Positions 693-26,355 of a stretch of 38,007 bases of DNA are shown here, one piece after another. Both the position numbers and the translations under genes were made by a program. The stretch comes from Chloroflexota bacterium. GTDB lineage: Bacteria; Chloroflexota; Anaerolineae; Anaerolineales; Villigracilaceae. Within the stretch, counting starts at the first letter, position 1. Each line of letters opens with the position of its first letter. The notes below the pieces were generated by a model, which did no database searches, had not been told where the DNA came from, and saw nothing but the letters and a program-made list of their open reading frames with translations. The DNA lies in the NCBI GenBank assembly GCA_021840275.1, contig JAKBYW010000001.1:1-38007 (forward strand), read 5' to 3'.

Positions 693-696
693 TTCT

Positions 697-745: not shown

Positions 746-779
746 ATTTTCCCCTTTTCGGTAGAGGCTATTTATTTTG
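733..779 (+). terminator. Intrinsic terminator / expression platform of riboswitch #1
   Basis: 14-bp stem ATAGCCTCTACCGA (733-746) / TCGGTAGAGGCTAT (758-771) followed by TTATTTTG. The left arm contains the 3' pseudoknot strand AGCCUCUAC, so aptamer folding and terminator formation are mutually exclusive. It ends 3 nt before the ATG at 782. Confidence 0.85.
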
Positions 780-781
780 CC

Positions 782-2206
782 ATGACGGAACATCTTCTCG
801 AAATCAAAATCACTCAACCAGGTCGTGTGACGGGGCAATACTTTTCCGTGGATGCAGACACGCTTCGTCTCGAAAAGATCGTGCGTCCGGATGAATCCAT
901 CCCCTTTGATGTAGGCATCCTGCCGACAGCGTTAACTCCCTTCAATGAACCGCTTGCCGTCCTTGTCATGGGCAGTCTCTCACATCCCAAAAATACAGAA
1001 TTGGAAGCCAAATTGCTTGGAGCTCTTCAAAGAAAAGAAGAAGCCCCTATTCTTTTGACCATCCCTGTTGTTGACGATTGTGCAATGCAGCGTCTGGATG
1101 AATATGCCGGAGAACAACGCGCTGATATTGTCAGGGTTTTGAGTCGCATCTACCCAGGCGAATGGCATTGGCTGACCGTGGAGGAGGTGGAACCCGCGCT
1201 ACATGCCGCCGCGCTGCGACATCGGCAGAAGCAGGCCGAAGGTAAACTGCCGCATCTTGACCCAGCCTGGCAGCCCATCCGTATGGGCCGCCCCACGGCA
1301 AGTTTTGCAGAGGCAGAACGTTTTACTGCCGCCGAATACACCTTCTATGAATTGCCTCATCGTTTTCAACATTATGTCAGTGAATACCTTGCGCCCGATG
1401 AACGCATCCTTTACGCGGCGCGCCGCCCAGCCATGTACAGCCATCGTAAACACTCCTGGTTTCGTCGAGCGCAATTGCAGGAAGGTGTCCTGATCCTTAC
1501 GAGTCAGCGGCTGATTCAACTAACCGAGCTTATCCCTCCTGACTCAGCGAACGTCCGATATGGGTTTCATGCGACTATCGGTGTACTCGAACGATTGGCA
1601 GAAACAACACTCACATCTCTTGGCCCCAATCTTCTTCTGCGAACCAAATGGAAAGCTGCCGGCGGGGAATCTGCCCTTGAATGGGAATCTCCAAATCATA
1701 CCCGCGCTTCGCTCGATGAATTGATTATGCTTTTGCGTGGATTTCTCACTACTGCAGATGCCTGCGCTCTGCGACGGGCGACTCCGCCCGACCCGCCAGA
1801 AAAACTGCCTTCATTGACAGATACCGCATCAGACGACCCTGAAAAGTTGCTTCTGCTTGATGAGCATTTTTCCAAAGCTGTGACAGATTTCCTCGCCCCC
1901 GATGAGCAAGTCCGCGCGTGGGCGCTTTTACCGAAATGGTCAGATCACCAAAAAACCGATAGGGCGCTTGTTGTAACAGAGAGACGCATCTTCCAGTTGC
2001 CTGACCATTCCATTGACATACCCCTCACGAATATAGCAACATTGGAATACACCAGTTCAATTCTGCAATCGTCGTTAGTAATCAATCATATTCAAGATGG
2101 CAAATCGCAACGAAAAGAGATTTATTTTCCCTATCCTGCACAGGATGCTTTTCGGGATTGTTTTGAAACCGCAAGGCGTTGCATGGCAGTCCTTCCTTTA
2201 TTATGA
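782..2206 (+). CDS. Hypothetical protein: degenerate family-I inorganic-pyrophosphatase-like N-domain plus two bacterial PH-like repeats
   Basis: 474-aa ORF. The N-terminal ~150 aa follow the PPase pattern (IPFDVGILPTALTPFNEPLAVLV vs YPxNYGxIPxTxxxDGDPxDVLV; LLGALQRKEEAPILLTIP; VLSRIYPGEWHWL), but the acidic metal ligands are replaced. There are two segments of the type PDERILYAA...GVLILTSQRLIQL and PDEQVRAWA...RALVVTERRIFQL. Confidence 0.8.
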   Translation: MTEHLLEIKITQPGRVTGQYFSVDADTLRLEKIVRPDESIPFDVGILPTALTPFNEPLAVLVMGSLSHPKNTELEAKLLGALQRKEEAPILLTIPVVDDCAMQRLDEYAGEQRADIVRVLSRIYPGEWHWLTVEEVEPALHAAALRHRQKQAEGKLPHLDPAWQPIRMGRPTASFAEAERFTAAEYTFYELPHRFQHYVSEYLAPDERILYAARRPAMYSHRKHSWFRRAQLQEGVLILTSQRLIQLTELIPPDSANVRYGFHATIGVLERLAETTLTSLGPNLLLRTKWKAAGGESALEWESPNHTRASLDELIMLLRGFLTTADACALRRATPPDPPEKLPSLTDTASDDPEKLLLLDEHFSKAVTDFLAPDEQVRAWALLPKWSDHQKTDRALVVTERRIFQLPDHSIDIPLTNIATLEYTSSILQSSLVINHIQDGKSQRKEIYFPYPAQDAFRDCFETARRCMAVLPLL

Positions 2207-2691
2207 ATTTATTCTTTTGCCCTCAATGTCGCCGACCTTTTGCATCCGTTCAGATATGTCCTGATTGCAGCGTCACTACCGACGCTGTGGCAGATACTTA
2301 CGTTGAAAGGTTATTGGAAACGGTATTATCCAACGAAACCAGTCGCGCAGGGATGGCGGTGGATGTATTAACCAAATGGCTGCATGAACCAAGAGCCATC
2401 CTTCCGTTGACTCTGTTATTGGAAAGAAAGAACGATCCTTATTCATTGGTCATCGGAGCACGAGGCTTGGGATGGCTGGGAGATGCGGCAGCTGTTCCAG
2501 TGTTGGCAAAATTCCTTTTAAACGAGAGCCAGCCCTACGTCGCGCGGGTTGCGGCGGCTGAGGCGCTGGGACGGATTGGTGGAGAAGAGTCCATCCAGGT
2601 ATTGGAGCAAGCGGCGGGAAGTCCGCGCCCCAGTGTGGCAGAGGCAGCATTAGAAAGCCTCCATAAAATAGAACAGGAAATCAAATCATGA
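2203..2691 (+). CDS. Zn-ribbon plus HEAT-repeat (PBS-lyase HEAT-like) protein
   Basis: CPQC...CPDC near the N-terminus, and HEAT-like repeats (ARGLGWLGDAAAVPVLAKFL; ARVAAAEALGRIGGEESIQVLEQA). I chose the ATG at 2203, which overlaps the upstream stop as ATGA. The ORF track starts at 2179. Confidence 0.75.
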   Translation: MNLFFCPQCRRPFASVQICPDCSVTTDAVADTYVERLLETVLSNETSRAGMAVDVLTKWLHEPRAILPLTLLLERKNDPYSLVIGARGLGWLGDAAAVPVLAKFLLNESQPYVARVAAAEALGRIGGEESIQVLEQAAGSPRPSVAEAALESLHKIEQEIKS

Positions 2692-4214
2692 CATTTTATA
2701 GTATCCTTTTCGAAAAGGAAAATATTCAGAAAGAAGCGGCAAAACAACCCGATTTTTTTAGTGACCTGAATTTGGATCAGGTGATAGATGCCATTGCAGC
2801 GCGCAAAAAAGACTATAACCTGAAACCATTCTTCTACAATCACCTGCGCGATGCCGAGACCATCTATTATCGTCATGAAGTAATGCGGGACTTGGAAGAC
2901 AAAGTGTTGATGGCCTGTATCAATGCCTTTGCCGAAAGAATGATCATTGTGCAACGTTACATGAGAATGGTTGAAAAACTGGATTCTCACCACCACAAAC
3001 AAGGCTGGATATTGGAGGCTGTGTTGCTTTATTGCGAGGCTATAACGAATTTTGCACATGAATTGGAAAAAATAAATATAACATCGCGCGGTTTGATCGC
3101 CTTTCACGAATATGTAACAACCTATGTTCATGCCCACACGTTTCAAGCTTTACAGAAGGAAGCGCAAAAGGTCAAGCACGAATTGTCGAGTGTGAAATAC
3201 TGTGTGATCATACAAGAAGGCAGGTTTAGTGTAAGAAGATACGAAGGGGAGACAGACTATAGTATTGAGGTGGAGCAGACCTTCGAGAAATTCAAACAGG
3301 GCGCTGTGAAAAATTACCTGGTTGATCTTTATAAAGGCGCGGGCATGAACCATATCGAAGCGAAAATTCTCGAATTCGTTGCCCTGCTGTATCCCAAACC
3401 TTTTGCCGCGCTCGATCAATTTTGCGCCGTTCACAGCCGATTCATGGATGAGACGATTCTTGTCTTCAATCGCGAGATTCAGTTCTACGTTGCTTATCTT
3501 GAATTCATCGCCGAGATTAAATATAAAGGATTGAATTTTTGTTATCCGCAAATCGGCGTAAATCGTGAGGTGTACGATTACGATGGCTTCGATCTGGCAT
3601 TGGCGAATGCTTTGATTTATACCGAGAAGCCAGTCATCCGCAACGACTTTTATCTCAATAACCCGGAACGTATCATCGTTGTTTCGGGACCGAATCAGGG
3701 CGGCAAGACCACTTTTGCCCGCACCTTTGGACAATTGCACTATCTTGCCAGTCTTGGTTGCCCGGTGCCAGGGCGCGAGGCGCGGCTGTTTCTATTCGAC
3801 CAGATTTTTACCCATTTCGAGAAAGAGGAGGACATTCACAACCTGCGCGGCAAATTGGAGGACGATGTGGCGCGCACTCATGACATCCTTGTCCGCGCCA
3901 CACCAGATAGTATTTTGATAATGAATGAGATTTTCGCATCCACTACCTTAAAGGACGCCGTTTTCTTGAGCAAGGAAATCATGGCGAAAATCATGGAACT
4001 GGATTTGTTGTGCGTGTGGGTGACGTTCATGGATGAGTTGGCTTCCTTGAGCGAGAAAACCATCAGCATGGTCAGCACCGTCGTTCCCGAAAATCCCGCG
4101 ATGAGGGCCTTTAGAATTATCAGAAAGCCTGCTGATGGGCTGGCCTACGCTCTCTCGCTGGCTGAAAAGCATCGATTGACCTACGAACAAATCAAGGAGC
4201 GAATTCAATCATGA
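2688..4214 (+). CDS. MutS-related ATPase (domain III/V only, no mismatch-binding domain), paralog 1
   Basis: Walker A is GPNQGGKTT. The MutS-type Walker B region ILIMNEIFASTT has N in place of the usual D. The N-terminal part is a helical core. Start and stop both overlap neighbours as ATGA. Confidence 0.85.
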   Translation: MTFYSILFEKENIQKEAAKQPDFFSDLNLDQVIDAIAARKKDYNLKPFFYNHLRDAETIYYRHEVMRDLEDKVLMACINAFAERMIIVQRYMRMVEKLDSHHHKQGWILEAVLLYCEAITNFAHELEKINITSRGLIAFHEYVTTYVHAHTFQALQKEAQKVKHELSSVKYCVIIQEGRFSVRRYEGETDYSIEVEQTFEKFKQGAVKNYLVDLYKGAGMNHIEAKILEFVALLYPKPFAALDQFCAVHSRFMDETILVFNREIQFYVAYLEFIAEIKYKGLNFCYPQIGVNREVYDYDGFDLALANALIYTEKPVIRNDFYLNNPERIIVVSGPNQGGKTTFARTFGQLHYLASLGCPVPGREARLFLFDQIFTHFEKEEDIHNLRGKLEDDVARTHDILVRATPDSILIMNEIFASTTLKDAVFLSKEIMAKIMELDLLCVWVTFMDELASLSEKTISMVSTVVPENPAMRAFRIIRKPADGLAYALSLAEKHRLTYEQIKERIQS

Positions 4215-5725
4215 AAGTTTTCCTGATGCATCCCAATCGGGATTTCGACCCAAAGCAAAAACTTCCGTTTAATGAAGACGCATTGACGCAGGACTTGGAA
4301 TTGAACACATTGTTCAACGCAATGGCGCAGGGAGATGAATTTCTGTTTGATGTGGCCAAACAATCTGTTTTGTCCAGTTTGGATTCACCCGATGCCATTC
4401 GCTATCGCCAGGAGATTCTCAGGGATTGCCTGAAAAATCCCGCCATTGTGAGGGAAATCTACAGTATCCCGATAGAGTCAATTGAAAATAAACACAGGCA
4501 TTGGATGGGAATTTTTTCAAAATACCCAAGCAGTATATTAAACGGCGCAGTCGAAATGCTGGAGATGTTCGTCGTCCTGCTCAAAAAATTAAAGCGGATT
4601 GCCGATGAACATGCACAGGAATTCGAATCGCCGGGCTTTCGAAGATTCTTTGCGATGATCCAGCAGGAGTTGGATGATGAGTATTTCGCCGTTGTCGAAA
4701 ATCATCTCAAAGTGCTGAAGTTTCGTAACGGTGTTCTCATCAGCGCTGAACTGGGAAATGGAAACGAGGGAACAAATTACATCCTTCGCAAAACCAATTA
4801 CGACAACCAGAATTGGGTCAAGCGCATCCTTGCGAGAAAATCCCAGGCCTACTCCTATTCCCTTCCTCCCCGCGATGAAGCGGGTGCGCAGGCGCTTGAG
4901 AATTTGAGGAGCAGAGGACTCAACTTGGTGGCCAATGCGGTGGCTCAATCCGCCGATCACATTGATAGTTTTCTCAATAACCTGCGGCTGGAACTGGCTT
5001 TTTACATCGGCTGTTTGAATTTATCCGAGCAGCTCGCCCAATTGGGGGGACCTATTGCATTTCCCCAACCTGCGCCTTCTGACGAGCGCCGACATTCGTT
5101 TACAAGTTTATACGATGTTGCATTGGCGTTGACCATGAAGCAAAAGGTTGTGGGCAACGATGTGAATGCTGATGGCAAAGATCTCGTCATTATCACAGGC
5201 GCCAACCAGGGCGGCAAATCCACTTTTCTGCGAAGTATTGGCCTGGCCCAGCTAATGACGCAGTGCGGGATGTTCGTGCCGGCGAAATCGTTTTCCGCCA
5301 GCTTGATTAAGGGACTTTTCACACACTACAAACGGGAAGAAGACACATCCATGCAAAGCGGTAAGTTCGATGAAGAACTTGGCAGGATGAGTGTGATTGT
5401 GGATCATATCACGCAGGATTCGATGATATTGTTCAATGAGTCGTTTGCCGCAACCAATGAAAGGGAAGGCTCGGAGATTGCGAGACAGATCGTGATGGCC
5501 TTGCTTGAAGAGCGAGCCAAAGTCTTTTATGTCACGCATTTATATGAGCTTGCATACGGTTTTCATGCGAAACAATTGGATAATGCCATTTTCCTGCGGG
5601 CGGATAGAAAATCGGATGGTCTTCGAACCTACAAATTAATCGAGGGAGAACCCCTGCAAACCAGCTATGCCGTGGATGCCTATAATAAGATATTCAGGTT
5701 GAACGAACATGAAAAAGACATTTGA
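4211..5725 (+). CDS. MutS-related ATPase (domain III/V only), paralog 2
   Basis: Walker A is GANQGGKST. The Walker B region MILFNESFAATN again reads NE instead of DE. YVTHLYELA follows. The start overlaps the upstream stop as ATGA. Confidence 0.85.
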   Translation: MKVFLMHPNRDFDPKQKLPFNEDALTQDLELNTLFNAMAQGDEFLFDVAKQSVLSSLDSPDAIRYRQEILRDCLKNPAIVREIYSIPIESIENKHRHWMGIFSKYPSSILNGAVEMLEMFVVLLKKLKRIADEHAQEFESPGFRRFFAMIQQELDDEYFAVVENHLKVLKFRNGVLISAELGNGNEGTNYILRKTNYDNQNWVKRILARKSQAYSYSLPPRDEAGAQALENLRSRGLNLVANAVAQSADHIDSFLNNLRLELAFYIGCLNLSEQLAQLGGPIAFPQPAPSDERRHSFTSLYDVALALTMKQKVVGNDVNADGKDLVIITGANQGGKSTFLRSIGLAQLMTQCGMFVPAKSFSASLIKGLFTHYKREEDTSMQSGKFDEELGRMSVIVDHITQDSMILFNESFAATNEREGSEIARQIVMALLEERAKVFYVTHLYELAYGFHAKQLDNAIFLRADRKSDGLRTYKLIEGEPLQTSYAVDAYNKIFRLNEHEKDI

Positions 5726-5780
5726 TCATTTCTGGTATTCAATTTCAAACCGCTTGAGAAAGGTTGTTTTGCCAAAAGAC

Positions 5781-6155
5781 ATGGAAACGTTTTTGTTGAT
5801 TTCAATAGGTGCGATTTTTGGGGCTAATTTAAGATATTGGGTTGGCGGCTGGGCGGCCACCCGCTTTGGGACTGCATTCCCTTACGGGACTCTGATTATT
5901 AACCTGACCGGCAGTTTTGTACTGGGTCTTTTTATAACACTGGCGACTGAGCGCTTATTGCTGGACCCGCGCTGGCGGTTAGTGGTCGCAATCGGCTTTC
6001 TCGGCGGCTATACAACATTTTCATCGTATACTTTCGAGAGTATGAGTCTGATTCTCAATAATCAATGGCTGCCTGGCTTGTTCGATCTCTTTGGGAGCGC
6101 TTTTTTGGGGGGAGTGGCGGTGTTGTTAGGTATTTTATTAGCAAGAGCCATTTAA
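5781..6155 (+). CDS. crcB: Fluoride ion channel CrcB/FluC
   Basis: FPYGTLIINLTGSFVLG and GFLGGYTTFSSY motifs with 4 predicted TM segments. The ORF track starts at 5709, but that 24-aa extension is atypical for CrcB, so I prefer METFLL at 5781. Confidence 0.85.
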   Translation: METFLLISIGAIFGANLRYWVGGWAATRFGTAFPYGTLIINLTGSFVLGLFITLATERLLLDPRWRLVVAIGFLGGYTTFSSYTFESMSLILNNQWLPGLFDLFGSAFLGGVAVLLGILLARAI

Positions 6156-6169
6156 TCTAAGGAGGCACA

Positions 6170-7432
6170 ATGTCACCGGAACAATTGATGGGAAAGAAAG
6201 TCAAACGGCTTAGCATTTATATCGGCGAAAGTGATCAGTGGCGCGGCAAGGCGCTGTACGTTGCATTAATCGAAACTCTTCGAGCACAGGGAATGGCTGG
6301 CGCAACCGTCTCACGCGGGATGGCGGGGTTTGGCGCGCATTCCGTGGTCCACACCGCCGCGATCCTGCGGCTCTCGCTCGATCTGCCGTTGATCATCAAT
6401 GTGATCGATTCTCCAGAGAAAATCAAGAATGTCCTCAAGATCATTGCCCCAATGGTGGGTGAGGGTTTGATCATTCTTGAAGATGTTGAAGTGGTCAAAT
6501 ATACACATCGTTATTTGAATCCCCTCCCAACCGATAAACCTGTTTCAGAAGTGATGACCAAAAAAATTATTACGCTGGCCGATACCATGTCCGTGGCAGA
6601 AGCATGGGAAAAGATGCTCAAGCATTTGCTCAAAGCTTTACCAGTTTTGAACAAACACGGTGATGTGGTCGGGATGTTGACCGATGAAGATTTGCTCGAA
6701 CGCGCTGGTCTGCAACAGCATTTGTCTGTGGCTGAACGAATGGATGAGCAAACGCTTCAAACAGAGATAACAGCATTGCGAAGCAGTCCGTTCAAAGTAG
6801 CGGATGTAATGACTTCCCCGGCAGTCACAATTCGAGGAGATGAGCCTTTGGGCGTTGCCACAGCACGCATGGTTGAACACGGGATCAAACGACTGCCTGT
6901 TCTCGATGGAAACGGAAAATTAATCGGCGTGCTTTCGCGTGTAGATGTGTTACGGCAGGTGGTTAGTGAGGAAGCGAAGAAACGCGCAGCGAAAGCCCCC
7001 TCCGGCGCAGCCCATACGGTGGGTGACATCATGATCTCTGAAATTCCCACTATTCATGAGGACGCACAACTGGCAGATGTGATCGCCAGCTTCCTGGAGG
7101 CCGGGACCCGCCGCCTGATCGTAACCGACGATGCTGGCCGACCCCTGGGTCTGATTAGTGATGCGGATGTAGTAACGCGGGTACAACCCAGCGCGCGACG
7201 CGGTGTTTTGCAAGCCCTACGTGGCAAACGTAAAGTTTCAGATGAAAAGACATCTGCCGCGCAATTGATGTCTCGTGAAGTGTTGAGTGCAACTCTAGAA
7301 ATATCCCTGACAGACGCCGCGCATCTTATGCTCTCACAAAAGCGCAAATGGATGGTGGTTGTGGATGCTGATGGCAAAGCTGTCGGTCTGGTGGATCGCC
7401 AAATTTTATTCAAGGCACTTTCAGGTCATTAA
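6170..7432 (+). CDS. DUF190 (PII-like, CrcB-associated) domain fused to four CBS domains
   Basis: The N-terminus LSIYIGESDQWRGKALYVALIETLRAQGMAGATVSRGMAGFG matches the DUF190 pattern, followed by four CBS-like units (e.g. VMTKKIITL, VMTSPAVTI, IMISEIPTI, LMSREVLSA). AGGAGG lies 5 nt upstream. Confidence 0.85.
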   Translation: MSPEQLMGKKVKRLSIYIGESDQWRGKALYVALIETLRAQGMAGATVSRGMAGFGAHSVVHTAAILRLSLDLPLIINVIDSPEKIKNVLKIIAPMVGEGLIILEDVEVVKYTHRYLNPLPTDKPVSEVMTKKIITLADTMSVAEAWEKMLKHLLKALPVLNKHGDVVGMLTDEDLLERAGLQQHLSVAERMDEQTLQTEITALRSSPFKVADVMTSPAVTIRGDEPLGVATARMVEHGIKRLPVLDGNGKLIGVLSRVDVLRQVVSEEAKKRAAKAPSGAAHTVGDIMISEIPTIHEDAQLADVIASFLEAGTRRLIVTDDAGRPLGLISDADVVTRVQPSARRGVLQALRGKRKVSDEKTSAAQLMSREVLSATLEISLTDAAHLMLSQKRKWMVVVDADGKAVGLVDRQILFKALSGH

Positions 7433-7746: not shown

Positions 7747-7761
7747 AATAATGCAAATTGA

Positions 7762-7930
7762 AACCTCGTTAGGCCAGGCGGCTGCAAGGTACACAGGCCA
7801 TTGCCCTGGAACGTCGAAAGACGCCAAAGGGTAGACCAGGTGAAGTCGGATTAAGGCTTCATTCAAAGTGGCTGGGATGTAATGTTACTCCCCTACGACG
7901 CGCAGTGCCAAAGCTAAACCAGGAGGTGGT
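7762..7930 (+). promoter_or_regulatory. M-box (ykoK leader) Mg2+ riboswitch
   Basis: Conserved M-box blocks are present: CGUUAGGCCAGGC, GUCGAAAGACGCCAAAGGGUAGACCAG, GGAUUAAGG, GCUGGGAUG and CAGUGCCAAAGCUAAACC, colinear with the B. subtilis mgtE leader as recalled. It lies upstream of mgtA. Confidence 0.85.
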
Positions 7931-7960
7931 TGTGGGTGTATTTTGTATACATTTAACCGG

Positions 7961-8511: not shown

Positions 8512-11145
8512 ATGGGATTCTTTACAACGATAATCACTACTCCCCAGCGCTGGGCAAATGCCACAAAGGGGAACAATATTCAAATATCAAAAGCATTAGC
8601 GGATAGCGCCCGGTTAGATGCCGCCGCTGTGCTCGAAAAACTAGGCACGTCTCAGAACGGACTCACAGTTCTTGATGTTGAAGCCCGCTTTGAACAGTAT
8701 GGGCCCAACGAGGTTGCCAAGGAGAAACACCAGACTTGGCTGATGCGCTTGATTGAAAACATCAAAAATCCGCTGGTTATTCTTCTGTCTGTACTCGGCT
8801 TGGTCTCTTATCTGACCGGTGATGTCCCCGGAACAATCGTGATCTTTATCATGGTTTTGCTGGGCATCGTGTTGCGCTACATACAGGAAAGCCGGGCTGA
8901 TTCTGCTGCAGCGAGGCTCAAGGCAATGGTAAGCACAACTGCTACGGTGGTACGCGCTGGAAAACGTATCGAAATTCCATTGAAGGAGTTGGTCCCCGGG
9001 GATATCGTTCATCTTTCAGCTGGCGATATGGTTCCCGGTGATGTACGGTTGCTCTCAGCAAAGGATCTGTTCTTGAACCAGGCCGCACTGACCGGGGAGT
9101 CCATGCCAGTGGAGAAGTTGCCTGCTGTTGTTACAGACGAGGCACTGAATCCACTCGAGATGCCAAATCTCTGCTTCCTTGGGTCAAACATTGAAAGCGG
9201 CACCGGTCTGGCAGTTGTCGTTCAAACGGGTAGCCAAACCTATTTTGGGTCCCTGGCAGGTAGCATTGTAGGTCAGCGACAATTGACCAGCTTTGACAAA
9301 GGTGTAAATGGTTTTACCTGGTTAATGATTGGTTTTATGGCCATTATGGTCCCCTTGGTGTTTCTGTTCAACGGCTTGAGCAAGCATAACTGGGTAGAAG
9401 CTTTCCTATTTGCGCTGGCAGTCGCAGTTGGACTGACGCCTGAGATGCTGCCAATGATCGTCACTGTCAATCTGTCCAAAGGCGCGCTTTCCATGTCAAA
9501 GAAAAAGGTGATCGTTAAACGATTGAACGCTATTCAGAATTTCGGTGCCATGGATGTTCTTTGCACGGACAAGACTGGCACGATCACAGAAGGCAAGATT
9601 GTACTGGAGAAGTACATGGATGTGAAAGGCAACACCAGCGAACAGGTACTTCATTACGGATATATGAACAGCTACTATCAGACAGGCTTGAAGAATCTGA
9701 TGGATGAAGCCATTCTCAATCATGTTAATCTCAACGATGATTTACAAGTGGATGAGCTTTACCGAAAGATCGACGAACTGCCCTTTGACTTCCAACGCAA
9801 ACGCATGTCTGTGATCGTAGAGAACAACCAAAACCAACACATCTTGATCTGCAAGGGCGCAGTCGAGGAAATCATGCAACTTTCCACACACGTGGAGGTT
9901 GGCGGTGAGGTTCTGGAAGTCCTGCCGGAACATGACGAACACCGCAAAGAGCGTGTGAAGCAGTTGAACTCCGAGGGCTTCCGTGTCATCGCGGTTGCTT
10001 ATCGGATCTTCTCCGGTGACAATGATGAACCGCACTACAAGGTGGCTGATGAGTCAAACCTGACCCTGCTCGGATACATGGCCTTCCTGGACCCACCGAA
10101 AGCGACCGCATCCGCCGCACTGGACAAACTCCATTTTCACAATGTGGTCGTCAAGATCCTGACCGGCGATAACGACATTGTCACAGCCAACATTTGTGAG
10201 CAGGTCGGCCTGTCCGTCGATCGGATACTACTCGGTCCGGAAATCGAACAAATGGATGATGTACAACTAGCGGAAGCTGCCGAGGCAATCACCGTTTTTG
10301 CCAAACTCTCCCCAACCCACAAAGAACGCATCATTCGCGCTTTGCAAGGGAAAGGTCACGTTGTCGGGTTCATGGGCGATGGGATTAACGATGCGCCAGC
10401 GCTCAAAACTGCCGATGTGGGCATTTCTGTGAACAGCGCAGTCGACATTGCCAAGGAGTCGTCCGACATCATCCTGCTTGAAAACAGCCTTCTGGTCCTG
10501 GAAGAAGGCGTCATCGAAGGTCGCAAGGTCTTTGGTAACATCATCAAATACATCAAGATGGCAGCCTCTTCCAACTTCGGGAACATGTTCAGCGTGCTGG
10601 GCGCCAGTCTATTCTTACCTTTTCTGCCGATGCTGCCTATTCAGGTCTTAACCAACAACCTATTGTATGACTTCTCGCAGACCGCGATCCCGACAGATGA
10701 AGTCGATCAAGAGTGGCTGACCAAACCGCGCAAATGGGAAATCAATTCGCTACGCCGCTTCATCATTTACATTGGCCCAATCAGTTCGATCTTCGATTAC
10801 ATGACGTACTTCATTATGTTGTATGTCTTCAATTGCTGGAGCAACCCTACACTGTTCCAGACGGGCTGGTTCGTAGAGTCTTTGTTCACCCAAACGTTGA
10901 TCATTCACGTTATCCGCACGAACAAGATTCCTTTCATTCAAAGCCGGGCGAGCAAATCGTTGATCTTTACTTCGCTCATTATTGTCGCAGTTGGCGCCTG
11001 GTTGACTGTTTCTCCATTGGCGTCTACATTAGGGTTTGTGACCTTGCCGCCTCTATACTGGCCCTTGCTGGCCGGCATGTTGATTGTTTATATCATCCTT
11101 ACACAGGTTGTGAAAGTCTGGTTTATTCGGCGGTTTGCTGAATAG
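8512..11145 (+). CDS. mgtA: Mg2+-importing P-type ATPase MgtA/MgtB
   Basis: 877 aa with TGES, CTDKTGTIT, TGDN and MGDGINDAPALK motifs and a P3-type 10-TM layout. GGAGG RBS. M-box leader upstream. Confidence 0.9.
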   Translation: MGFFTTIITTPQRWANATKGNNIQISKALADSARLDAAAVLEKLGTSQNGLTVLDVEARFEQYGPNEVAKEKHQTWLMRLIENIKNPLVILLSVLGLVSYLTGDVPGTIVIFIMVLLGIVLRYIQESRADSAAARLKAMVSTTATVVRAGKRIEIPLKELVPGDIVHLSAGDMVPGDVRLLSAKDLFLNQAALTGESMPVEKLPAVVTDEALNPLEMPNLCFLGSNIESGTGLAVVVQTGSQTYFGSLAGSIVGQRQLTSFDKGVNGFTWLMIGFMAIMVPLVFLFNGLSKHNWVEAFLFALAVAVGLTPEMLPMIVTVNLSKGALSMSKKKVIVKRLNAIQNFGAMDVLCTDKTGTITEGKIVLEKYMDVKGNTSEQVLHYGYMNSYYQTGLKNLMDEAILNHVNLNDDLQVDELYRKIDELPFDFQRKRMSVIVENNQNQHILICKGAVEEIMQLSTHVEVGGEVLEVLPEHDEHRKERVKQLNSEGFRVIAVAYRIFSGDNDEPHYKVADESNLTLLGYMAFLDPPKATASAALDKLHFHNVVVKILTGDNDIVTANICEQVGLSVDRILLGPEIEQMDDVQLAEAAEAITVFAKLSPTHKERIIRALQGKGHVVGFMGDGINDAPALKTADVGISVNSAVDIAKESSDIILLENSLLVLEEGVIEGRKVFGNIIKYIKMAASSNFGNMFSVLGASLFLPFLPMLPIQVLTNNLLYDFSQTAIPTDEVDQEWLTKPRKWEINSLRRFIIYIGPISSIFDYMTYFIMLYVFNCWSNPTLFQTGWFVESLFTQTLIIHVIRTNKIPFIQSRASKSLIFTSLIIVAVGAWLTVSPLASTLGFVTLPPLYWPLLAGMLIVYIILTQVVKVWFIRRFAE

Positions 11146-11960: not shown

Positions 11961-12605
11961 TCATACGGTCTTTGAAGTACTGTGGCTTGAGATTATCGAT
12001 AATAAATGGCTGGTTTCATTCAAAAGGGTCAGCGTGAATTTATTGTCTTCCGCCTCGAACGAATTAATCGCGCAGGTGTCCTGACGAACCCTCCAAAAGC
12101 TGCGGGAATCCATTCCAAGCGTTGAAAGCAGGATCAGGCGATTAAGTGCAGTATGGCTAACCAGAACAATCGTTTGGTCTGGATAACGGGCAATCAAACC
12201 ATCCACACATTTCATGGCCCTTAAGCGCGCCATCTCCAATGCTTCGCCGCCCGGAAAACGGAAGTCGCCCGGCGCATGAAGATAAGCCTGGAACTCTGTT
12301 GGCCAGCGCTGACTCGCTTCATCAGGAGTTAGACCCTGCCATTGACCACAATCCACATCAATCAAGCTTGGTTCAACGCGGACAATCAAATTGAATAAGC
12401 ATGCAGTGGATTCGGCAGTTTGGATGGTGCGCGAGAGCGGTCCCGCGTAGACGGCTTCAGGTTTCCACTGTGATGCGATTCGTACACCAGTCACTTTCGC
12501 TTGAGCAAAGCCGGTTTCATCAGGCGGTATGTCTGCGTGCCCACGGAAGCGCTCCTCACGATTCCAGGCAGTCTGGCCGTGTCTCACCAGGATAATCCTT
12601 GTCAT
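11961..12605 (-). CDS. Histidine phosphatase family protein (phosphoglycerate mutase-like)
   Basis: N-terminal RHGQTAWN motif, the ERFRGH segment and a second catalytic His (VSHTA). Confidence 0.85.
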   Translation of the reverse strand: MTRIILVRHGQTAWNREERFRGHADIPPDETGFAQAKVTGVRIASQWKPEAVYAGPLSRTIQTAESTACLFNLIVRVEPSLIDVDCGQWQGLTPDEASQRWPTEFQAYLHAPGDFRFPGGEALEMARLRAMKCVDGLIARYPDQTIVLVSHTALNRLILLSTLGMDSRSFWRVRQDTCAINSFEAEDNKFTLTLLNETSHLLSIISSHSTSKTV

Positions 12606-12682
12606 TATTCAAGTCCTTTATTTACTCTAGTCTTGAACGAACCAATCATGAATTCGAAGATCGTTTGAAAGTGGAACATTTG

Positions 12683-13435
12683 TTATCTTTTCTTGATAAT
12701 ATTTTCATCGTAATAGGCAAGCATATCTTCCGGGCTGCCGTGATTAATGATGATTCCCTGATCCATCACAATAACACGATTGCATAGATTTTTGATTTGT
12801 TCAGGATTGTGCGAAACTATGATGACTATTTCCGACTCTTCGACCAGTTGGTGGATACGCTGAGAACTCTTCTGCACAAAGTATGCATCACCGGTCGCAA
12901 AAACTTCATCAATCAGCAGGATTTCCGGCTCTATCATGATGGCAATCGAGAAAGACAGCCGCCCGAACATTCCTGTTGAATAGTATTTTACAGGCAGGTC
13001 AAGAAACTCCTCCAGTTCCGAAAATTCGGCTATGGCTTTTTCTTTTACCTTCATTTGGGCTGGAGAGTATCCCAACAGGGCGCCATACAAATAGATATTT
13101 TCCCGCCCGGTTTGTTCAGGGTCAAATCCTGCACCGAGTTCCATCAAAGGGGTGACGTGCCCGGCAACCACGACTCGCCCGTATTGGGGAGCATAAATTC
13201 CGGCGATGGTTTTTAGTAATGTTGATTTCCCCGACCCATTCAAACCAATGACACCCAAACGATCTCCCGGATATACTGAAAGAGAGATGTTATTTAATGC
13301 GCAGAACTCTGTAAAACCATCCCGGTTGTTCCTGCCCATGAACCAGTTGATCAGCGCTTCTTTGAGGGATGGAATGGGATTATGGTAGATTCGAAATTTG
13401 ACAGAGACATCCTGCATCTGAATAGATATTTTCAT
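12683..13435 (-). CDS. ABC transporter ATP-binding protein, Wzt/TagH/KpsT polysaccharide-export type (no cognate permease nearby)
   Basis: GLNGSGKST Walker A, YSTGMFGRLSF signature and LLIDEVF Walker B. I prefer the start MKISIQ at 13435. The ORF track starts at 13486. Confidence 0.85.
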   Translation of the reverse strand: MKISIQMQDVSVKFRIYHNPIPSLKEALINWFMGRNNRDGFTEFCALNNISLSVYPGDRLGVIGLNGSGKSTLLKTIAGIYAPQYGRVVVAGHVTPLMELGAGFDPEQTGRENIYLYGALLGYSPAQMKVKEKAIAEFSELEEFLDLPVKYYSTGMFGRLSFSIAIMIEPEILLIDEVFATGDAYFVQKSSQRIHQLVEESEIVIIVSHNPEQIKNLCNRVIVMDQGIIINHGSPEDMLAYYDENIIKKR

Positions 13436-13542
13436 AATTTGTGGAGTACGCCCGATATAACAAATGAGTTCACAAATAATCAACAAACCTTAAGCTGGCA
13501 TTGACTCTCGTAAATTTGTTATCCGAGTTGATAGCTGGTTTT

Positions 13543-14469
13543 CTATTTATCATCAGATTGTTTCGGACTTGACCAAAGGCTCTCCACATCCAAGGCTTTA
13601 TCGTTTTCCATCATCACCTGGCGGTCCAGCGCAACCGAATTTCTCGCCAGATGGATGCAGATATTGCGCCATTCCCTGTTTGACCGGCTTTCAACCGTTT
13701 CAACCACCTTCCGCAGGCAGAGGGTAATTACCCAGCCATATGATGGGCCACCGACCTTCTCTTCCTCGATCAGAATGACAGCTTTGTCGGTCAATGCCAA
13801 CAGGGATGATGGAGCAATGGGACGATTGAAAAAATGCAGGAGGGGTTGTTTGATGCGAGGTTGGTAAACATACCCCAGCAAACGTTCGCCACGTTGCAAT
13901 GCGTAATGCCTTAAGCCGTTCATGAATTTGAAGGACTCAGTTTCCAATTTTTGCAGCAGAGCATCATTCTGTTCCCGAATGGATGCAACCGGTTGAGCCA
14001 TGCCATAAGTCAAGTACAGGAATTGGGTCAACATTATTTCCACGAGATGTTGTCCAACGGTATTGTATTCAATAACAATGTGCACAAGCCTGCCGTTAAC
14101 TTCCCCTGCCAGTTCCAGGCGGTTATAGAGCAACACAAGTGTGTAATGCACGTATAGAAGCGACTCGCCATGAAGATAGGTTGCGGTGGGAGGCTGACCA
14201 TCCCGAATATGCAAAATCCCTTGGGCTGTGGATAGAAGTGCCTGCCGCGGCACGCCGCGCCTTCCCAGAAATGGCTGTGGCGGGAGCATCAGGATAGAAG
14301 TGATTGGCTCCACAGGCTTCAATAATGGCTGTGCTGCCTGTTGAAAACGCTCTGGCAGATCCTTTAGGTCTGACACTTCGTAGGGAAACTGACTTTCTCT
14401 ATCGGCCATAAGGGATTGTGTTTTTGGATATTCAACAGCCACTCCCGCTTTGGGAGTGGCTTCGATCAA
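13543..14469 (-). CDS. Hypothetical protein with two PH-like repeats; distant paralog of 782-2206
   Basis: LPERFQQAAQPLLKPVEPITSILMLP resembles LPHRFQHYVSEYLAPDERILYAARRP of ORF 782. GERLLGYVYQP...LLALTDKAVILIEEE...YGW resembles PDERILYAARRP...VLILTSQRLIQLTE...YGF. The start is TTG at 14469, and the first ATG is at 14409. Confidence 0.7.
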   Translation of the reverse strand: MIEATPKAGVAVEYPKTQSLMADRESQFPYEVSDLKDLPERFQQAAQPLLKPVEPITSILMLPPQPFLGRRGVPRQALLSTAQGILHIRDGQPPTATYLHGESLLYVHYTLVLLYNRLELAGEVNGRLVHIVIEYNTVGQHLVEIMLTQFLYLTYGMAQPVASIREQNDALLQKLETESFKFMNGLRHYALQRGERLLGYVYQPRIKQPLLHFFNRPIAPSSLLALTDKAVILIEEEKVGGPSYGWVITLCLRKVVETVESRSNREWRNICIHLARNSVALDRQVMMENDKALDVESLWSSPKQSDDK

Positions 14470-14484
14470 GAATTACATCTAACG

Positions 14485-15768
<1,284 letters not shown>

Positions 15769-15794
15769 TTAGTCTCCAAATTAGTGATTTACAT

Positions 15795-16022
15795 TTACAG
15801 GCTTTGTGGGCCTATGATGTTTTCAAGAAGAAAACCGATAACGAAAGACAATACAATAAAGAATACCAACGTAACCAGGGCCGCCTCTGTCGCCAGCTTT
15901 ACGGGTTTCCTTTTATCCGGATAATGATGTGAGTATTCGCCATATGTAATAAGAAACGCCATGACAGACGCCAGAGGCGAAAAGACCAGACTGATCACAA
16001 CAGAAACCGCAACAAATTTCAT
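15795..16022 (-). CDS. Small 2-TM membrane protein, unknown function
   Basis: 75 aa with two hydrophobic helices flanking YPDKRKPVK. It is tightly packed between the MFS gene and eno on the same strand. Confidence 0.5.
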   Translation of the reverse strand: MKFVAVSVVISLVFSPLASVMAFLITYGEYSHHYPDKRKPVKLATEAALVTLVFFIVLSFVIGFLLENIIGPQSL

Positions 16023-16092
16023 GGCTGGGCTGGTTCTTGAATCCGTAAGCTATCTGGGGTTGGATGAGCATTGATAGGCGTGAGGAAATATA

Positions 16093-17307
16093 TCATTCAG
16101 TTTCTTTCTTTACTGGAAGTCGCCGGGTTTGCTTGGCTACGATGAAGAATAAAGGCACGGCGGCCAGTTGCGCAACGACCGAGAAGATTATCAGTGCTGG
16201 CAGCGAGATGCCGTACAGAAGCCCAATCACCGCGCTGCCCAGAAACCAGAAGATACCGTAGCCTGCTGTGAACAATCCGTATGCGGAAGCGCGGCGCTCG
16301 GGTGCAACCATCGGCGCTACTGCCGCGGGAATAATGGATTCATGCACTCCCATGCCCAAACCCCAGATCGCCATCCCAATAAGCGCGGTCCAAAAACCGC
16401 CCAGGAAAACCAACGGCGCAAAGAGTGCGGCGATGATTGTCAAAACAATCAGGATGGAAAAACCAAAACGGTCATAAAGCCGTCCGAATACCAGCGAACC
16501 AGCCCCGCTCACGCCCATCGCCACAGCATAAAATACCGGAATAACGTCCAGTGAAACAATGGAGGCTTGCGCGAAATGGTAGGCAATCAGCGGAAAATCC
16601 GCGAAGCCTGCCGCGACCAGTGCCGCGCCCACCAGATACAGCCAAAAGACGCGCGGCAGTCCACGCGGTTGAACATTCGGGACGTTTGTCTCCATTTCTT
16701 CAGGGTGCGGATAAGTTCGGTAGGCCAACAGGAGCAAGCTAAAGTTAATGACTGCGGGCACGGCCAGTGCCGCGAAGGCGAGATGATAATCGCCACGCAT
16801 CGCCAAGACCCACGCGACCACCAGGGGTCCAAACAGGGCGCCAAATTGATCCAGCGCTTCGTGCAAGCCAAATACCCATCCAATGCCGAGCTGTTTACCA
16901 GCATGTGATAGCATCACATCGCGTGGTGGATTGCGTGTGGCTTTTCCCACGCGTTCGAGAATAATCAGTACCGCCGCCATCGGCCAATTCCCCGCTAAAG
17001 CCAGCAGTGGTACAGATGCCATCTGGACGGCATAGCCAATAATCGTGATGGGCCAGAATTTCTGGGTGCGGTCAGCGAGTCGTCCCGAGACAAGCCGCAG
17101 GCCATAGCCCAGCAACTCTCCAAAGCCTGTCACAAGGCCGACAACGAAAGCACTCGCCTGCAAATGTGCGAGATAAGGACCAATAATGCTACGAGAGCCT
17201 TCGTATGTAAAATCAGCGAAGAAACTCAGGATACCAATCAAGAGTACAAACTTGAAGGCCATCTGTTGCACAGTGGTTTGTTCGGAAACCGCCGAATTAT
17301 TTTTCAT
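16093..17307 (-). CDS. MFS transporter
   Basis: 404 aa with ~12 hydrophobic segments and MFS motif A (GRLADRTQKF). AGGAG RBS. Confidence 0.85.
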   Translation of the reverse strand: MKNNSAVSEQTTVQQMAFKFVLLIGILSFFADFTYEGSRSIIGPYLAHLQASAFVVGLVTGFGELLGYGLRLVSGRLADRTQKFWPITIIGYAVQMASVPLLALAGNWPMAAVLIILERVGKATRNPPRDVMLSHAGKQLGIGWVFGLHEALDQFGALFGPLVVAWVLAMRGDYHLAFAALAVPAVINFSLLLLAYRTYPHPEEMETNVPNVQPRGLPRVFWLYLVGAALVAAGFADFPLIAYHFAQASIVSLDVIPVFYAVAMGVSGAGSLVFGRLYDRFGFSILIVLTIIAALFAPLVFLGGFWTALIGMAIWGLGMGVHESIIPAAVAPMVAPERRASAYGLFTAGYGIFWFLGSAVIGLLYGISLPALIIFSVVAQLAAVPLFFIVAKQTRRLPVKKETE

Positions 17308-17344
17308 ACAATGGCATTTCTCCTTTGTGATTCGATGCTGGCAA

Positions 17345-17381
17345 CAAAAAAGCTTCTACCAGCAGGATTGTGGTAGAAGCT
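17345..17381 (-). terminator. Intrinsic terminator / expression platform of fluoride riboswitch #2
   Basis: On the minus strand: AGCTTCTACCA (17381-17371) / TGGTAGAAGCT (17361-17351) 11-bp stem followed by TTTTTTG. The left arm is the 3' pseudoknot strand of the aptamer. It lies 38 nt upstream of the MFS start. Confidence 0.8.
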
Positions 17382-17440
17382 ATCAGTCGGAAAAACGACG
17401 AAGGTGTTTTGTTCAACGCTGACGAGCTTCATCGTCAACG
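17372..17440 (-). promoter_or_regulatory. Fluoride riboswitch aptamer (crcB motif) #2
   Basis: The minus-strand RNA is CGUUGACGAUGAAGCUCGUCAGCG..AACAAAAC..CGUCGUUUUUCCGACUGAUAGCUUCUACC. It has the same architecture as #1, with compensatory changes in P1 (GACGA/UCGUC) and in the pseudoknot (GAAGCU/AGCUUC). The segment CCGACUGAUAGC is identical to #1. Confidence 0.75.
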
Positions 17441-17470
17441 TGCCTGTGAATATTTGGTTTGTTGATGAAT

Positions 17471-17479
17471 ATTATAACA
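17471..17479 (-). promoter_or_regulatory. Candidate extended -10 promoter of operon B
   Basis: The minus strand reads TGTTATAAT (TGnTATAAT) ~30 nt upstream of aptamer #2. TTGCAA at 17502-17497 lies 20 nt away, a poor -35 spacing. Confidence 0.4.
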
Positions 17480-26192: not shown

Positions 26193-26230
26193 AATTAAAA
26201 ACCTCTACTGAAGAACATATTCAGTAGAGG
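26193..26230 (-). terminator. Intrinsic terminator after the metallophosphoesterase gene
   Basis: On the minus strand: CCTCTACTGAA/TTCAGTAGAGG 11-bp stem followed by TTTTTAATT. Confidence 0.75.
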
Positions 26231-26355
26231 CCATCAGCTATGGAGCTAGCGGTTGAATAAATTCAGAGCGAGCCTCATCGCTCAAACCTATAAAATTTTA
26301 CCACGACCCTTGCCTCAGGTGATCAAAAGCCATTCAACGGGAGTTGAGAGAACGG

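What the first reader, a model, noticed from the sequence alone, without database searches (positions are those of the whole stretch)
17345..17440. Second fluoride riboswitch, related to the first by compensatory changes in P1 and the pseudoknot
On the minus strand the RNA is CGUUGACGAUGAAGCUCGUCAGCG-UUGAACAAAAC-ACCUUCGUCGUUUUUCCGACUGAUAGCUUCUACC. Relative to aptamer #1, P1 changes from GGCGA/UCGCC to GACGA/UCGUC. The pseudoknot changes from GAGGCU/AGCCUC to GAAGCU/AGCUUC. In each case a G-C pair becomes A-U through two coordinated substitutions. CCGACUGAUAGC is identical. The 3' pseudoknot strand is again the left arm of a terminator (17381-17345, U6 tail). A TGnTATAAT promoter lies ~30 nt upstream. 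The J region between P1 and AAAAC is longer than in #1, which is the main uncertainty.
Basis: partly seen in the sequence, partly recalled or inferred. Interest (0 to 1): 0.65.

Follow-up and report, generated by a model that had tools for sequence, protein, structure and literature searches.

The report
Hidden variant fluoride riboswitch before enolase operon
This is a genuine fluoride-sensing RNA switch in front of a transporter–enolase operon, belonging to a small structural variant group (longer first stem, extra outer stem, A-rich bulge) that the standard Rfam model fails to detect.

Summary
On the minus strand at 17445-17343 lies a fluoride-riboswitch-type aptamer. Its 3' pseudoknot strand is the left arm of an 11-bp terminator, and it sits 25 nt downstream of a TGTTATAAT promoter and upstream of an MFS-transporter/enolase operon. 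Rfam RF01734 matches full length but scores only 21.9 bits (gathering score 34; E=0.065 window-wide).

The "too long J region" is not disorder. Its first 5 nt extend P1 to 9 bp. About 10 A-rich nt then form a one-sided bulge. The next 4 nt (ACCU/GCCU) probably pair with AGGC 5' of P1, forming an outer helix, P0.

Fifteen distinct homologues share this design. They come from Chloroflexota MAGs and metagenomes and sit before the same MFS or enolase genes. Across them 94.5% of cells are paired (31-47% when partners are slid), and 10 pairs show two-sided changes. None of the eight homologues I scored with RF01734 reaches its threshold.

The pocket nucleotides (AUG, UGAU, the U after the pseudoknot) are intact. 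The MFS gene family sits beside canonical fluoride riboswitches in 24 of 40 genomes checked. The most likely function is a fluoride-induced transcriptional ON switch.

Verdict: a new structural variant of a known class, of moderate interest. Ligand binding is untested.

The parts
17471..17479 (-). Extended -10 promoter TGTTATAAT, with no clear -35
   Evidence: Read. TGnTATAAT is kept at the same distance in 9 of 10 aligned homologous leaders. Assigned by consensus match only.
17446..17463 (-). 5' leader holding the conserved motif ACAAYCAAAUAUU (function unknown)
   Evidence: Alignment A6. The CAAAUA core is present in most clade leaders and absent in L118 and L178.
17442..17445 (-). P0 5' strand, AGGC
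   Evidence: RNAalifold on A6. Counts on A7: 93.2% paired, inner pair CG:9 UA:3 other:2. In the window, the pair C17442.A17405 is a mismatch.
17433..17441 (-). P1 5' strand ACGUUGACG (9 bp; the canonical core is the last 4 nt)
   Evidence: P1 is 94.1% paired and 6 of 9 pairs show two-sided changes.
17425..17432 (-). P1 loop AUGAAGCU. It holds the pocket nucleotides A-U-G and the 5' pseudoknot strand GAAGCU (17430-17425)
   Evidence: RF01734 alignment. Pseudoknot is 6/6 Watson-Crick and 98.9% paired across 15 sequences.
17416..17424 (-). P1 3' strand CGUCAGCGU.
17406..17415 (-). A-rich one-sided bulge UGAACAAAAC
   Evidence: Alignments A5 and A7. The purine/A-rich composition is conserved, the sequence is not.
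17402..17405 (-). P0 3' strand, ACCU (GCCU in most homologues)
   Evidence: The alternative partner, the P1 loop (decoy pseudoknot), is 86.4% paired with no compensation.
17386..17399 (-). Second hairpin (P3): GUCG-UUUUUC-CGAC, directly 5' of UGAU
   Evidence: It is 89.8% paired, with G-C<->U-A at the outer pair and G-C<->A-U at the inner pair. The register differs from the Rfam alignment.
17382..17385 (-). UGAU, equivalent to U38-G39-A40-U41 of the solved aptamer (pocket and linchpin A)
   Evidence: alignment. Roles taken from PMC8752731 and PMC11077080.
17372..17381 (-). 3' pseudoknot strand AGCUUC (17381-17376) followed by UACC (U17375 is the linchpin partner)
17343..17381 (-). Intrinsic terminator: 11-bp stem whose left arm is the pseudoknot 3' strand plus UACCA, a 9-nt loop, then UUUUUUGUU
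   Evidence: -16.9 kcal/mol. The terminator is kept in all 10 leaders examined, and its pair covaries with the pseudoknot (UA:5 CG:4 UG:1).
11961..17307 (-). Regulated operon: MFS transporter 17307-16093, 75-aa ORF 16022-15795, enolase 15765-14485, 308-aa unknown 14469-13543, ABC ATPase 13486-12683, histidine phosphatase 12605-11961
   Evidence: No intergenic terminator-like site was found inside it. The operon extent is inferred.

Best explanation
This is a fluoride-responsive transcriptional ON riboswitch of the crcB/RF01734 type, in a variant architecture.

Transcription starts about 7 nt after the TGTTATAAT box. The nascent RNA folds into a long P1 of 9 bp, probably closed by a 3-4-bp outer helix (P0) across an A-rich bulge. 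A small hairpin (P3) follows.

With Mg2+ and fluoride present, the P1 loop (GAAGCU) pairs with AGCUUC to form the pseudoknot. That fold is locked by the conserved UGAU and by the U that follows the pseudoknot. AGCUUCUACCA is then unavailable as the left arm of the terminator, so RNA polymerase reads through into the MFS-enolase operon.

Without fluoride, the much stronger terminator hairpin displaces the pseudoknot and transcription stops at the U tract.

Shown here: the sequence elements, their conservation and covariation, the overlap with the terminator, and the gene context. Inferred: fluoride binding, the ON logic, the start site and the operon extent.
For: - **Model match.** RF01734 matches full length at 21.9 bits, and it is the only sub-threshold hit in the window.
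- **Pocket nucleotides.** A-U-G, U-G-A-U, the 6/6 pseudoknot and the following U are all present.
- **Conservation.** Fifteen distinct homologues share the architecture. 94.5% of cells are paired against 31-47% when partners are slid, and 10 pairs have two-sided changes. P0 and the pseudoknot were not in the aligning model, so their counts are not fitted.
- **Terminator.** It overlaps the pseudoknot strand in all 10 leaders examined, and the shared position covaries. Stabilities are -16.9 kcal/mol for the terminator and -6.3 for the pseudoknot duplex.
- **Downstream genes.** The operon holds enolase (651 bits to TIGR01060), a classic fluoride target that is often found in fluoride-riboswitch operons (PMC11139923). 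Clade members sit before the MFS gene or before a 94-96% identical enolase.
- **MFS family context.** It has gathering-level fluoride riboswitches within 2.5 kb in 24 of 40 genome loci. At least 11 loci have one directly upstream on the same strand, counting the two clade-type leaders in L003 and L004.
- **Same contig.** It carries a canonical fluoride riboswitch before MutS-like, CrcB and DUF190-CBS genes.
- **Mechanism in the literature.** Terminator overlap implying an ON switch is described in PMC2864571, PMC8752731 and PMC11077080.
Against: - The score is below Rfam's gathering threshold, and the conserved AACC that normally precedes the second hairpin is absent.
- If P0 stacks on P1, only 2 nt would connect it to P3. 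A docked pseudoknot would then need a sharp fold-back at the bulge, or P0 would have to open.
- In the window itself P0 has a C.A mismatch and adds only -0.5 kcal/mol.
- P3 has a C.A mismatch in 3 homologues.
- A few clade members carry changes in UGAU (UGAC, UAAU), which shows that not every copy need be functional.
- There is no binding or expression data.
Confidence: 0.85

Rival explanations
1. The RNA is a decayed copy of a fluoride riboswitch that no longer binds ligand. It acts only as a constitutive, leaky terminator or attenuator in front of the operon.
For: The Rfam score is sub-threshold. The AACC linker motif is missing. There is a mismatch in the window's P0, and some relatives have altered UGAU.
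Against: All four helices are kept by compensatory changes across 15 sequences whose adjacent MFS proteins, where there is one, are only 53-93% identical to the window's. The pocket nucleotides are intact in the window copy. Promoter, aptamer and terminator are all maintained together. Decay would not preserve pairing.
Confidence: 0.07
2. The variant clade has the fluoride-riboswitch scaffold but senses a different ligand or signal. It would be an altered-specificity variant of the kind known for FMN or guanidine-I-like classes.
For: The clade is a discrete group, well separated by a clade-specific model (52-100 bits versus 44 or less for other fluoride aptamers). Its junction architecture is different.
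Against: Fluoride is held through Mg2+ and five backbone phosphates rather than bases (PMC5473149), and the nucleotides that build this site are unchanged. The regulated genes (enolase, and an MFS gene that canonical fluoride riboswitches control in other phyla) are fluoride-type. CrcB and DUF190-CBS genes lie next to the clade copies in L004.
Confidence: 0.05
3. The linker's (A)GCCUU does not close an outer helix. Instead it forms a decoy pseudoknot with the P1 loop, with the A-rich strand lying in the groove of the long P1. This would hold the loop away from the true 3' strand until fluoride is present. It concerns only the role of the long J, and is compatible with a fluoride switch.
For: AGCCUU is a near copy of the true 3' strand AGCCUC. 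The pairing is 86.4% satisfied across 15 sequences. A linker of about 12 nt crossing a 9-bp stem is classical H-type pseudoknot geometry (general knowledge).
Against: There is no compensatory change. The G-to-A variants of the linker break this pairing in 5 of 15 sequences, and three of those five are compensated in the 5' flank under the P0 model.
Confidence: 0.15
4. A chance resemblance: an ordinary terminator or small RNA (Rfam also lists weak sau-19 and RefA1 hits here).
For: Weak hits to RF02386 (26.2 bits against a gathering score of 80) and RF02842.
Against: Those hits cover only the terminator hairpin and lie far below their thresholds. The full aptamer is conserved with covariation in 15 loci.
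Confidence: 0.01

Closest known systems
Fluoride riboswitch (crcB motif RNA, Rfam RF01734), transcriptional type as in Bacillus cereus crcB
   Same: P1 hairpin whose loop begins A-U-G. Six-bp pseudoknot between that loop and the strand after UGAU. Small hairpin directly before UGAU. A U after the pseudoknot, giving the A-U linchpin. Terminator whose left arm is the 3' pseudoknot strand, so an ON switch. Control of fluoride-toxicity genes such as enolase.
   Different: P1 is 9-11 bp instead of 4-5 bp. The 5-6-nt linker ending in AACC is replaced by a one-sided A-rich bulge of about 10-12 nt, then (G/A)CCU, which probably pairs with AGGC 5' of P1 (outer helix P0), then 2-3 pyrimidines. RF01734 scores are 21.9 bits or lower, below the gathering score of 34.
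Fluoride riboswitches with the optional hairpin in the P1-P3 linker (present in 31% of crcB RNAs; PMC3023696); window 26218-26291 is an example
   Same: The distance between P1 and the second hairpin is also long. They are found in the same environments and the same gene neighbourhoods.
   Different: Those carry a local, stable hairpin followed by the usual A-A-C-C-like motif, and they reach the Rfam threshold. The candidate's clade has neither a local hairpin nor AACC. Its extra nucleotides pair with the 5' flank instead.
The window's own aptamer #1 (688-749, before the MutS-like/CrcB/DUF190-CBS operon)
   Same: The pseudoknot, UGAU and P3 3' side are near identical (CCGACUGAUAGC is shared). 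It has the same terminator logic and is a likely paralogue.
   Different: Aptamer #1 has a 4-5-bp P1 and the canonical AAAACC linker, and scores 41.2 bits. It differs from the candidate by G-C to A-U changes in P1 and in the pseudoknot.

Membership tests
Fluoride riboswitch (crcB motif, RF01734) | P1 stem closing an 8-nt loop that begins A-U-G | tested here: met
   GACG-AUGAAGCU-CGUC, extended to 9 bp. P1 is 94.1% paired, and 6 of 9 pairs covary across 15 homologues.
Fluoride riboswitch (crcB motif, RF01734) | Pseudoknot between loop nucleotides 3-8 and the 6 nt that follow UGAU | tested here: met
   GAAGCU/AGCUUC is 6/6 Watson-Crick. The clade is 98.9% paired, with pair 3 as GC:7 GU:6 AU:1 other:1.
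Fluoride riboswitch (crcB motif, RF01734) | Conserved pocket and linchpin nucleotides (A6 U7 G8, U38 G39 A40 U41, U48 in the numbering of the solved aptamer) | tested here: met
   All are present at 17432-17430, 17385-17382 and 17375. Their roles are taken from PMC8752731, PMC11077080 and PMC5473149. The mapping of numbers onto the solved sequence is from memory.
Fluoride riboswitch (crcB motif, RF01734) | Second hairpin immediately 5' of UGAU | tested here: met
   GUCG-UUUUUC-CGAC. It is 89.8% paired and 2 of 4 pairs covary.
Fluoride riboswitch (crcB motif, RF01734) | Short P1-P3 linker ending in the conserved A-A-C-C (with or without the optional hairpin) | tested here: not met
   The linker is UGAACAAAAC-ACCU-UC. 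No AACC abuts P3 in any of the 15 clade members.
Fluoride riboswitch (crcB motif, RF01734) | Score at or above Rfam's gathering threshold (34 bits). This is an operational criterion, not a structural one. | tested here: not met
   21.9 bits. Of eight clade loci, only L118 is even listed, at 18.5 bits.
Fluoride riboswitch (crcB motif, RF01734) | Expression platform: terminator overlapping the 3' part of the motif | tested here: met
   An 11-bp stem sharing AGCUUCUACCA with the aptamer. It is present in all 10 leaders examined.
Fluoride riboswitch (crcB motif, RF01734) | Association with fluoride-toxicity genes | tested here: met
   Enolase is in the operon (PMC11139923). The MFS family lies next to RF01734 hits in 24 of 40 loci.
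Fluoride riboswitch (crcB motif, RF01734) | Selective binding of fluoride with Mg2+, and fluoride-dependent gene control | not testable with these tools
   Needs in-line probing, transcription termination assays or reporter assays.

The most novel reading that the evidence does not exclude
The candidate and its 14 relatives define a structurally distinct subclass of fluoride riboswitch: an outer helix P0, a 9-11-bp P1 and an A-rich bulge in place of the AACC linker. Its tertiary arrangement around the pseudoknot must differ from the solved aptamer, either by a fold-back of P0 or by a competing decoy pseudoknot. Its sensitivity or switching kinetics may differ accordingly. Because RF01734 misses it, fluoride regulons in Chloroflexota and similar uncultured lineages are under-annotated.
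Probability: 0.3. Interest if true: 0.6.

Novelty: new variant of a known kind. Interest (0 to 1): 0.45.

Why it matters
There are three practical points.

1. Rfam-based annotation misses this whole group. The best member scores 21.9 bits against a threshold of 34. Fluoride-responsive operons in Anaerolineae-like Chloroflexota are therefore being under-called, and the clade alignment made here could seed an improved model.

2. The variant is a natural experiment on the one part of the fluoride aptamer that is not in the ligand pocket, the strand that crosses P1. A stem twice the usual length, a long A-rich strand and an extra closing helix still have to deliver the same pseudoknot. That is informative for people who study co-transcriptional folding of this model riboswitch.

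3. The regulated first gene belongs to a large, uncharacterised MFS family. It sits beside fluoride riboswitches in many phyla and is a candidate new player in fluoride tolerance.

None of this changes the concept of the class, so the interest is moderate.

Tried and rejected
- **First regex scan.** My first regex for the motif found nothing because of an off-by-one error in the pattern. I replaced it with a structure-aware scanner.
- **MAFFT alignments.** MAFFT alignments of the leaders misplace the 5' strand of P3 because loop lengths differ. I therefore built a small covariance model from three length-matched members and used model-fitted alignments (A5, A7).
- **Local hairpin in the long linker.** I considered a weak local hairpin inside the linker (GAA/UUC, AAAG/CUUU, AAAA/UUUU). 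I dropped it because the pairing is low-complexity and is better explained by the P1 extension plus P0.
- **Rfam's P3 register.** UUCG/CGAC with a mismatch is rejected in favour of GUCG/CGAC, which covaries.
- **Decoy pseudoknot.** It was tested and is less well supported than P0, though not excluded.
- **Other pairings checked by eye.** The conserved 5' leader (CAACAAA) pairing with the terminator tail (UUUGUUG) works in the window but is not conserved in L107 or L003. The linker CCUUU acting as an anti-Shine-Dalgarno sequence against AAAGG upstream of the start codon reaches only 4-5 bp and was not pursued.
- **Weak Rfam hits.** sau-19 and RefA1 cover only the terminator hairpin.
- **Literature.** The structure paper (PMC3744881) and Baker et al. 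2012 (PMC4140402) are not held. Statements about the solved structure therefore rest on secondary papers and on memory. Searches found nothing on a long-P1/P0 variant or on this MFS family.

Full report

Relative to the window's aptamer at 688-749, the P1 core changes GGCG/CGCC to GACG/CGUC and the pseudoknot changes GAGGCU/AGCCUC to GAAGCU/AGCUUC. Each is a G-C to A-U double substitution. CCGACUGAUAGC is identical in both.

AGCUUCUACCA (17381-17371) is the left arm of an 11-bp hairpin whose right arm is 17361-17351. A run of six U follows, counting the last base of the stem (-16.9 kcal/mol). The simple terminator scan missed it only because its loop is 9 nt. TGTTATAAT lies at 17479-17471.

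**2. Rfam.** At gathering thresholds the window has an M-box (7758-7932) and two fluoride aptamers, at 688-749(+) with 41.2 bits and at 26218-26291(-) with 37.4 bits. The candidate is not among them.

With permissive filters RF01734 aligns full length to 17445-17367 at 21.9 bits, with E=5e-4 for the 301-nt region. In a permissive scan of the whole window it is the only sub-threshold hit of any of 4227 families, at E=0.065. The score is lost to an 11-nt insertion after P1 and to a mis-registered second hairpin.

**3. Context.** Five large ORFs lie downstream on the same strand:
- an MFS transporter (17307-16093);
- enolase (15765-14485; 651 bits to TIGR01060);
- a 308-aa protein with no family match;
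- a TagH/Wzt-like ABC ATPase;
- a histidine-phosphatase-family protein.

No intergenic terminator-like site interrupts them.

Enolase is a classic fluoride-inhibited enzyme and is often found in fluoride-riboswitch operons (PMC11139923).

The first riboswitch of the window heads an operon with two MutS-domain-V proteins, CrcB and a DUF190-CBS protein. The contig therefore carries a fluoride-response island. It is a metagenome contig, and its closest relatives are Anaerolineae/Chloroflexota MAGs.

**4. The MFS gene as a fluoride-regulon gene.** Eighty genome loci encode relatives of the MFS protein at 58-88% identity, spread over many phyla. I scanned 40 of them at Rfam gathering. There were 37 RF01734 hits, falling in 24 loci.

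Nine loci have a hit on the same strand within 700 nt upstream of the MFS gene. L003 and L004, the two closest relatives, show no gathering hit but have the candidate's variant form. That gives 26 of 40 loci with a fluoride aptamer and at least 11 of 40 with one directly upstream.

**5. What the long 'J' is.** A structure-aware scan of the window and all fetched loci recovered the Rfam hits and parsed the candidate as follows:

P1 core | 21 nt | GUCG-UUUUUC-CGAC | UGAU | AGCUUC | UACC

Most of them carry a stable local hairpin followed by an A-A-C-C-like motif. This is the known optional hairpin, present in 31% of crcB RNAs (PMC3023696).

A small group lacks both features. In that group the first 4-7 nt of the 'linker' are complementary to the bases 5' of P1. 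Its members rank at the top for P1 extension among 151 distinct aptamers, whose typical extension is 0-2 pairs.

In the window, P1 is ACGUUGACG (17441-17433) paired with CGUCAGCGU (17424-17416).

RNAalifold on ten full leaders then paired the conserved (A/G)GGC just 5' of P1 with the conserved GCCU in the linker. This gives an outer helix, P0. The A-rich stretch (window UGAACAAAAC, 17415-17406) becomes a one-sided bulge, and only UC/UU separates P0 from the second hairpin.

**6. Homologues and covariation.** I built a covariance model from three length-matched members. It separates the group, at 52-100 bits, from all other fluoride aptamers, at 44 bits or less. The three seed sequences, including the window, match it by construction.

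Close MFS homologues yielded five more members, giving 15 distinct sequences. On the model-fitted alignment A7:
- 94.5% of cells form standard pairs, against 31-47% when the 3' partners are slid by 1-3 columns;
- 10 of 23 pairs have changes on both sides;
- no shuffle reaches the observed paired fraction or covariation score.

| Helix | Cells paired | Variation |
|---|---|---|
| P1 | 94.1% | 6 of 9 pairs change on both sides |
| Pseudoknot | 98.9% | pair 3 is GC:7 GU:6 AU:1 other:1; the window is the A-U case |
| P3 | 89.8% | 2 of 4 pairs change on both sides; C.A mismatch in three sequences |
| P0 | 93.2% | inner pair CG:9 UA:3 other:2 |

P0 and the pseudoknot were not in the model, so their counts are not fitted to it.

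The window's own P0 has a C.A mismatch and adds only -0.5 kcal/mol.

There is a rival partner for the linker's (A)GCCUU, namely the P1 loop, forming a decoy pseudoknot. That pairing is 86.4% satisfied but shows no compensation. It is broken by the same G-to-A variants, three of which P0 compensates. I favour P0 but cannot exclude the decoy.

**7. Expression platform.** All ten leaders aligned in full keep the terminator, and nine keep the TGnTATAAT box. The terminator's left arm is the pseudoknot 3' strand plus UACC(A). The variable pseudoknot position also covaries with the terminator's right arm.

The candidate's leader folds to -40.8 kcal/mol, z=-5.0. The terminator (-16.9 kcal/mol) far outweighs the pseudoknot duplex (-6.3 kcal/mol). 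This is the arrangement expected for a switch that terminates unless ligand locks the pseudoknot (PMC2864571, PMC8752731, PMC11077080).

Clade members precede the MFS gene (window, L003, L004, L162, L194, L199, L203, L206, L207) or an enolase 94-96% identical to the window's (L118, L178). Others precede a small ORF or a CBS-domain gene.

**8. Membership.** The features that build the fluoride pocket and the switch are all present:
- the A-U-G loop start;
- the pseudoknot;
- UGAU, and the U after the pseudoknot;
- the hairpin before UGAU;
- the terminator overlap;
- the gene context.

Two features are not met: the conserved AACC linker and the Rfam gathering score. Of eight clade loci scored with RF01734 in permissive mode, only one is even listed, at 18.5 bits.

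Fluoride is bound through Mg2+ and five backbone phosphates rather than bases (PMC5473149). A change of ligand therefore seems unlikely while the pocket nucleotides are intact. I file it as a new structural variant of the fluoride riboswitch class, not as a plain member and not as a new class.

**9. Geometry (inference only).** In an H-type pseudoknot, the strand that leaves the 3' side of the first stem has to travel back along that stem to reach the second stem. That is general knowledge of pseudoknot geometry. A P1 of 9-11 bp instead of 4-5 bp therefore calls for a longer connecting strand, and A-rich strands are typical of such groove-crossing segments.

If P0 forms at the same time as the docked pseudoknot, it cannot stack coaxially on P1, because only 2 nt link it to P3. 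It would have to fold back at the bulge, or else P0 and the docked state alternate. These tools cannot settle this.

- Ordinary: it is a fluoride riboswitch doing what fluoride riboswitches do.
- Not ordinary: it belongs to a conserved variant architecture that the reference model misses, and it controls an uncharacterised MFS family strongly linked to fluoride riboswitches across phyla.

Confidence that it is a functional fluoride ON switch is 0.85. Interest is 0.45.

Noticed in passing
window 26218-26291 (-), with ORFs 26139-24442 and 24402-22666: A third fluoride riboswitch in the window (RF01734, 37.4 bits) with a hairpin inserted in its linker. It precedes a 565-aa P-type-ATPase-like protein that seems to lack the usual N- and C-terminal membrane parts, and then a dynamin-like GTPase with a weak DUF6062 match. 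The finding's title calls the 17345-17440 element the 'second' riboswitch, but there are three.
   Followed up: partly
window 688-7432 (+): The first fluoride riboswitch (41.2 bits) heads a six-gene operon: a 474-aa protein with only a faint pyrophosphatase match, a HEAT-repeat protein, two MutS-domain-V proteins, CrcB (5709-6155) and a DUF190-plus-CBS protein. The 474-aa first gene has no family assignment.
   Followed up: partly
window 7758-7932 (+) and 8512-11145 (+): A strong M-box (Mg2+) riboswitch (122 bits) precedes an MgtA-like P-type ATPase, and it lies between two fluoride-controlled operons. The review PMC11139923 notes that divalent-cation transporters are over-represented near fluoride exporters.
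   Followed up: no
window 16093-17307 (-); loci L003-L082: The MFS transporter belongs to a very large family: more than 7600 database proteins at E<=1e-100, named only 'MFS transporter' or 'arabinose efflux permease'. It lies within 2.5 kb of a gathering-level fluoride riboswitch in 24 of 40 genome loci from many phyla, often directly downstream of one. I found no paper on it. It is a candidate fluoride-tolerance transporter of unknown substrate.
   Followed up: partly
window 17446-17463 (-); alignment A6: A conserved leader motif, ACAAYCAAAUAUU, lies between the -10 box and the start of the structure in most clade members. L118 and L178 lack the CAAAUA core. I found no conserved pairing partner for it.
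   Followed up: partly
L203 163-238, 669-745, 2066-2139; L004 2370-2444 and 3732-3807: Single genomes carry two or three clade-type aptamers within 1.5-2 kb. They stand in front of a 79-aa ORF, the MFS gene and a CBS-domain gene (L203), or before and after the MFS gene (L004).
   Followed up: no
L203 669-745; L206 673-747; L207 671-744: Three clade members have changes inside the otherwise invariant UGAU: UGAC in L203, and UAAU in L206 and L207. The U equivalent to U41 is reported to be essential in the B. cereus switch (PMC11077080). These copies may be inactive, or the variant fold may tolerate the change.
   Followed up: no
loci L203-L215: The genes next to close MFS homologues repeat the window's own gene set: enolase, His_Phos_1, CBS, MutS_V, HEAT, dynamin/DUF6062, pyrophosphatase and peptidase M20. 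This looks like a recurrent, shuffled 'fluoride island' in these uncultured lineages.
   Followed up: no
window 17402-17407 versus 17376-17381 (-): The linker segment (A)(G/A)CCUU is a near copy of the 3' pseudoknot strand AGC(C/U)UC, and the 5' flank AGGC copies part of the 5' pseudoknot strand. This may reflect an internal duplication or a designed competitor. The decoy pairing was tested and is less well supported than P0.
   Followed up: yes
window 13543-14469 (-) and 15795-16022 (-): Two operon ORFs have no Pfam or NCBIfam match. One is a 308-aa protein just upstream of the ABC ATPase, possibly its membrane partner. The other is a 75-aa ORF between the MFS gene and enolase, which is 71% identical in L003.
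   Followed up: no
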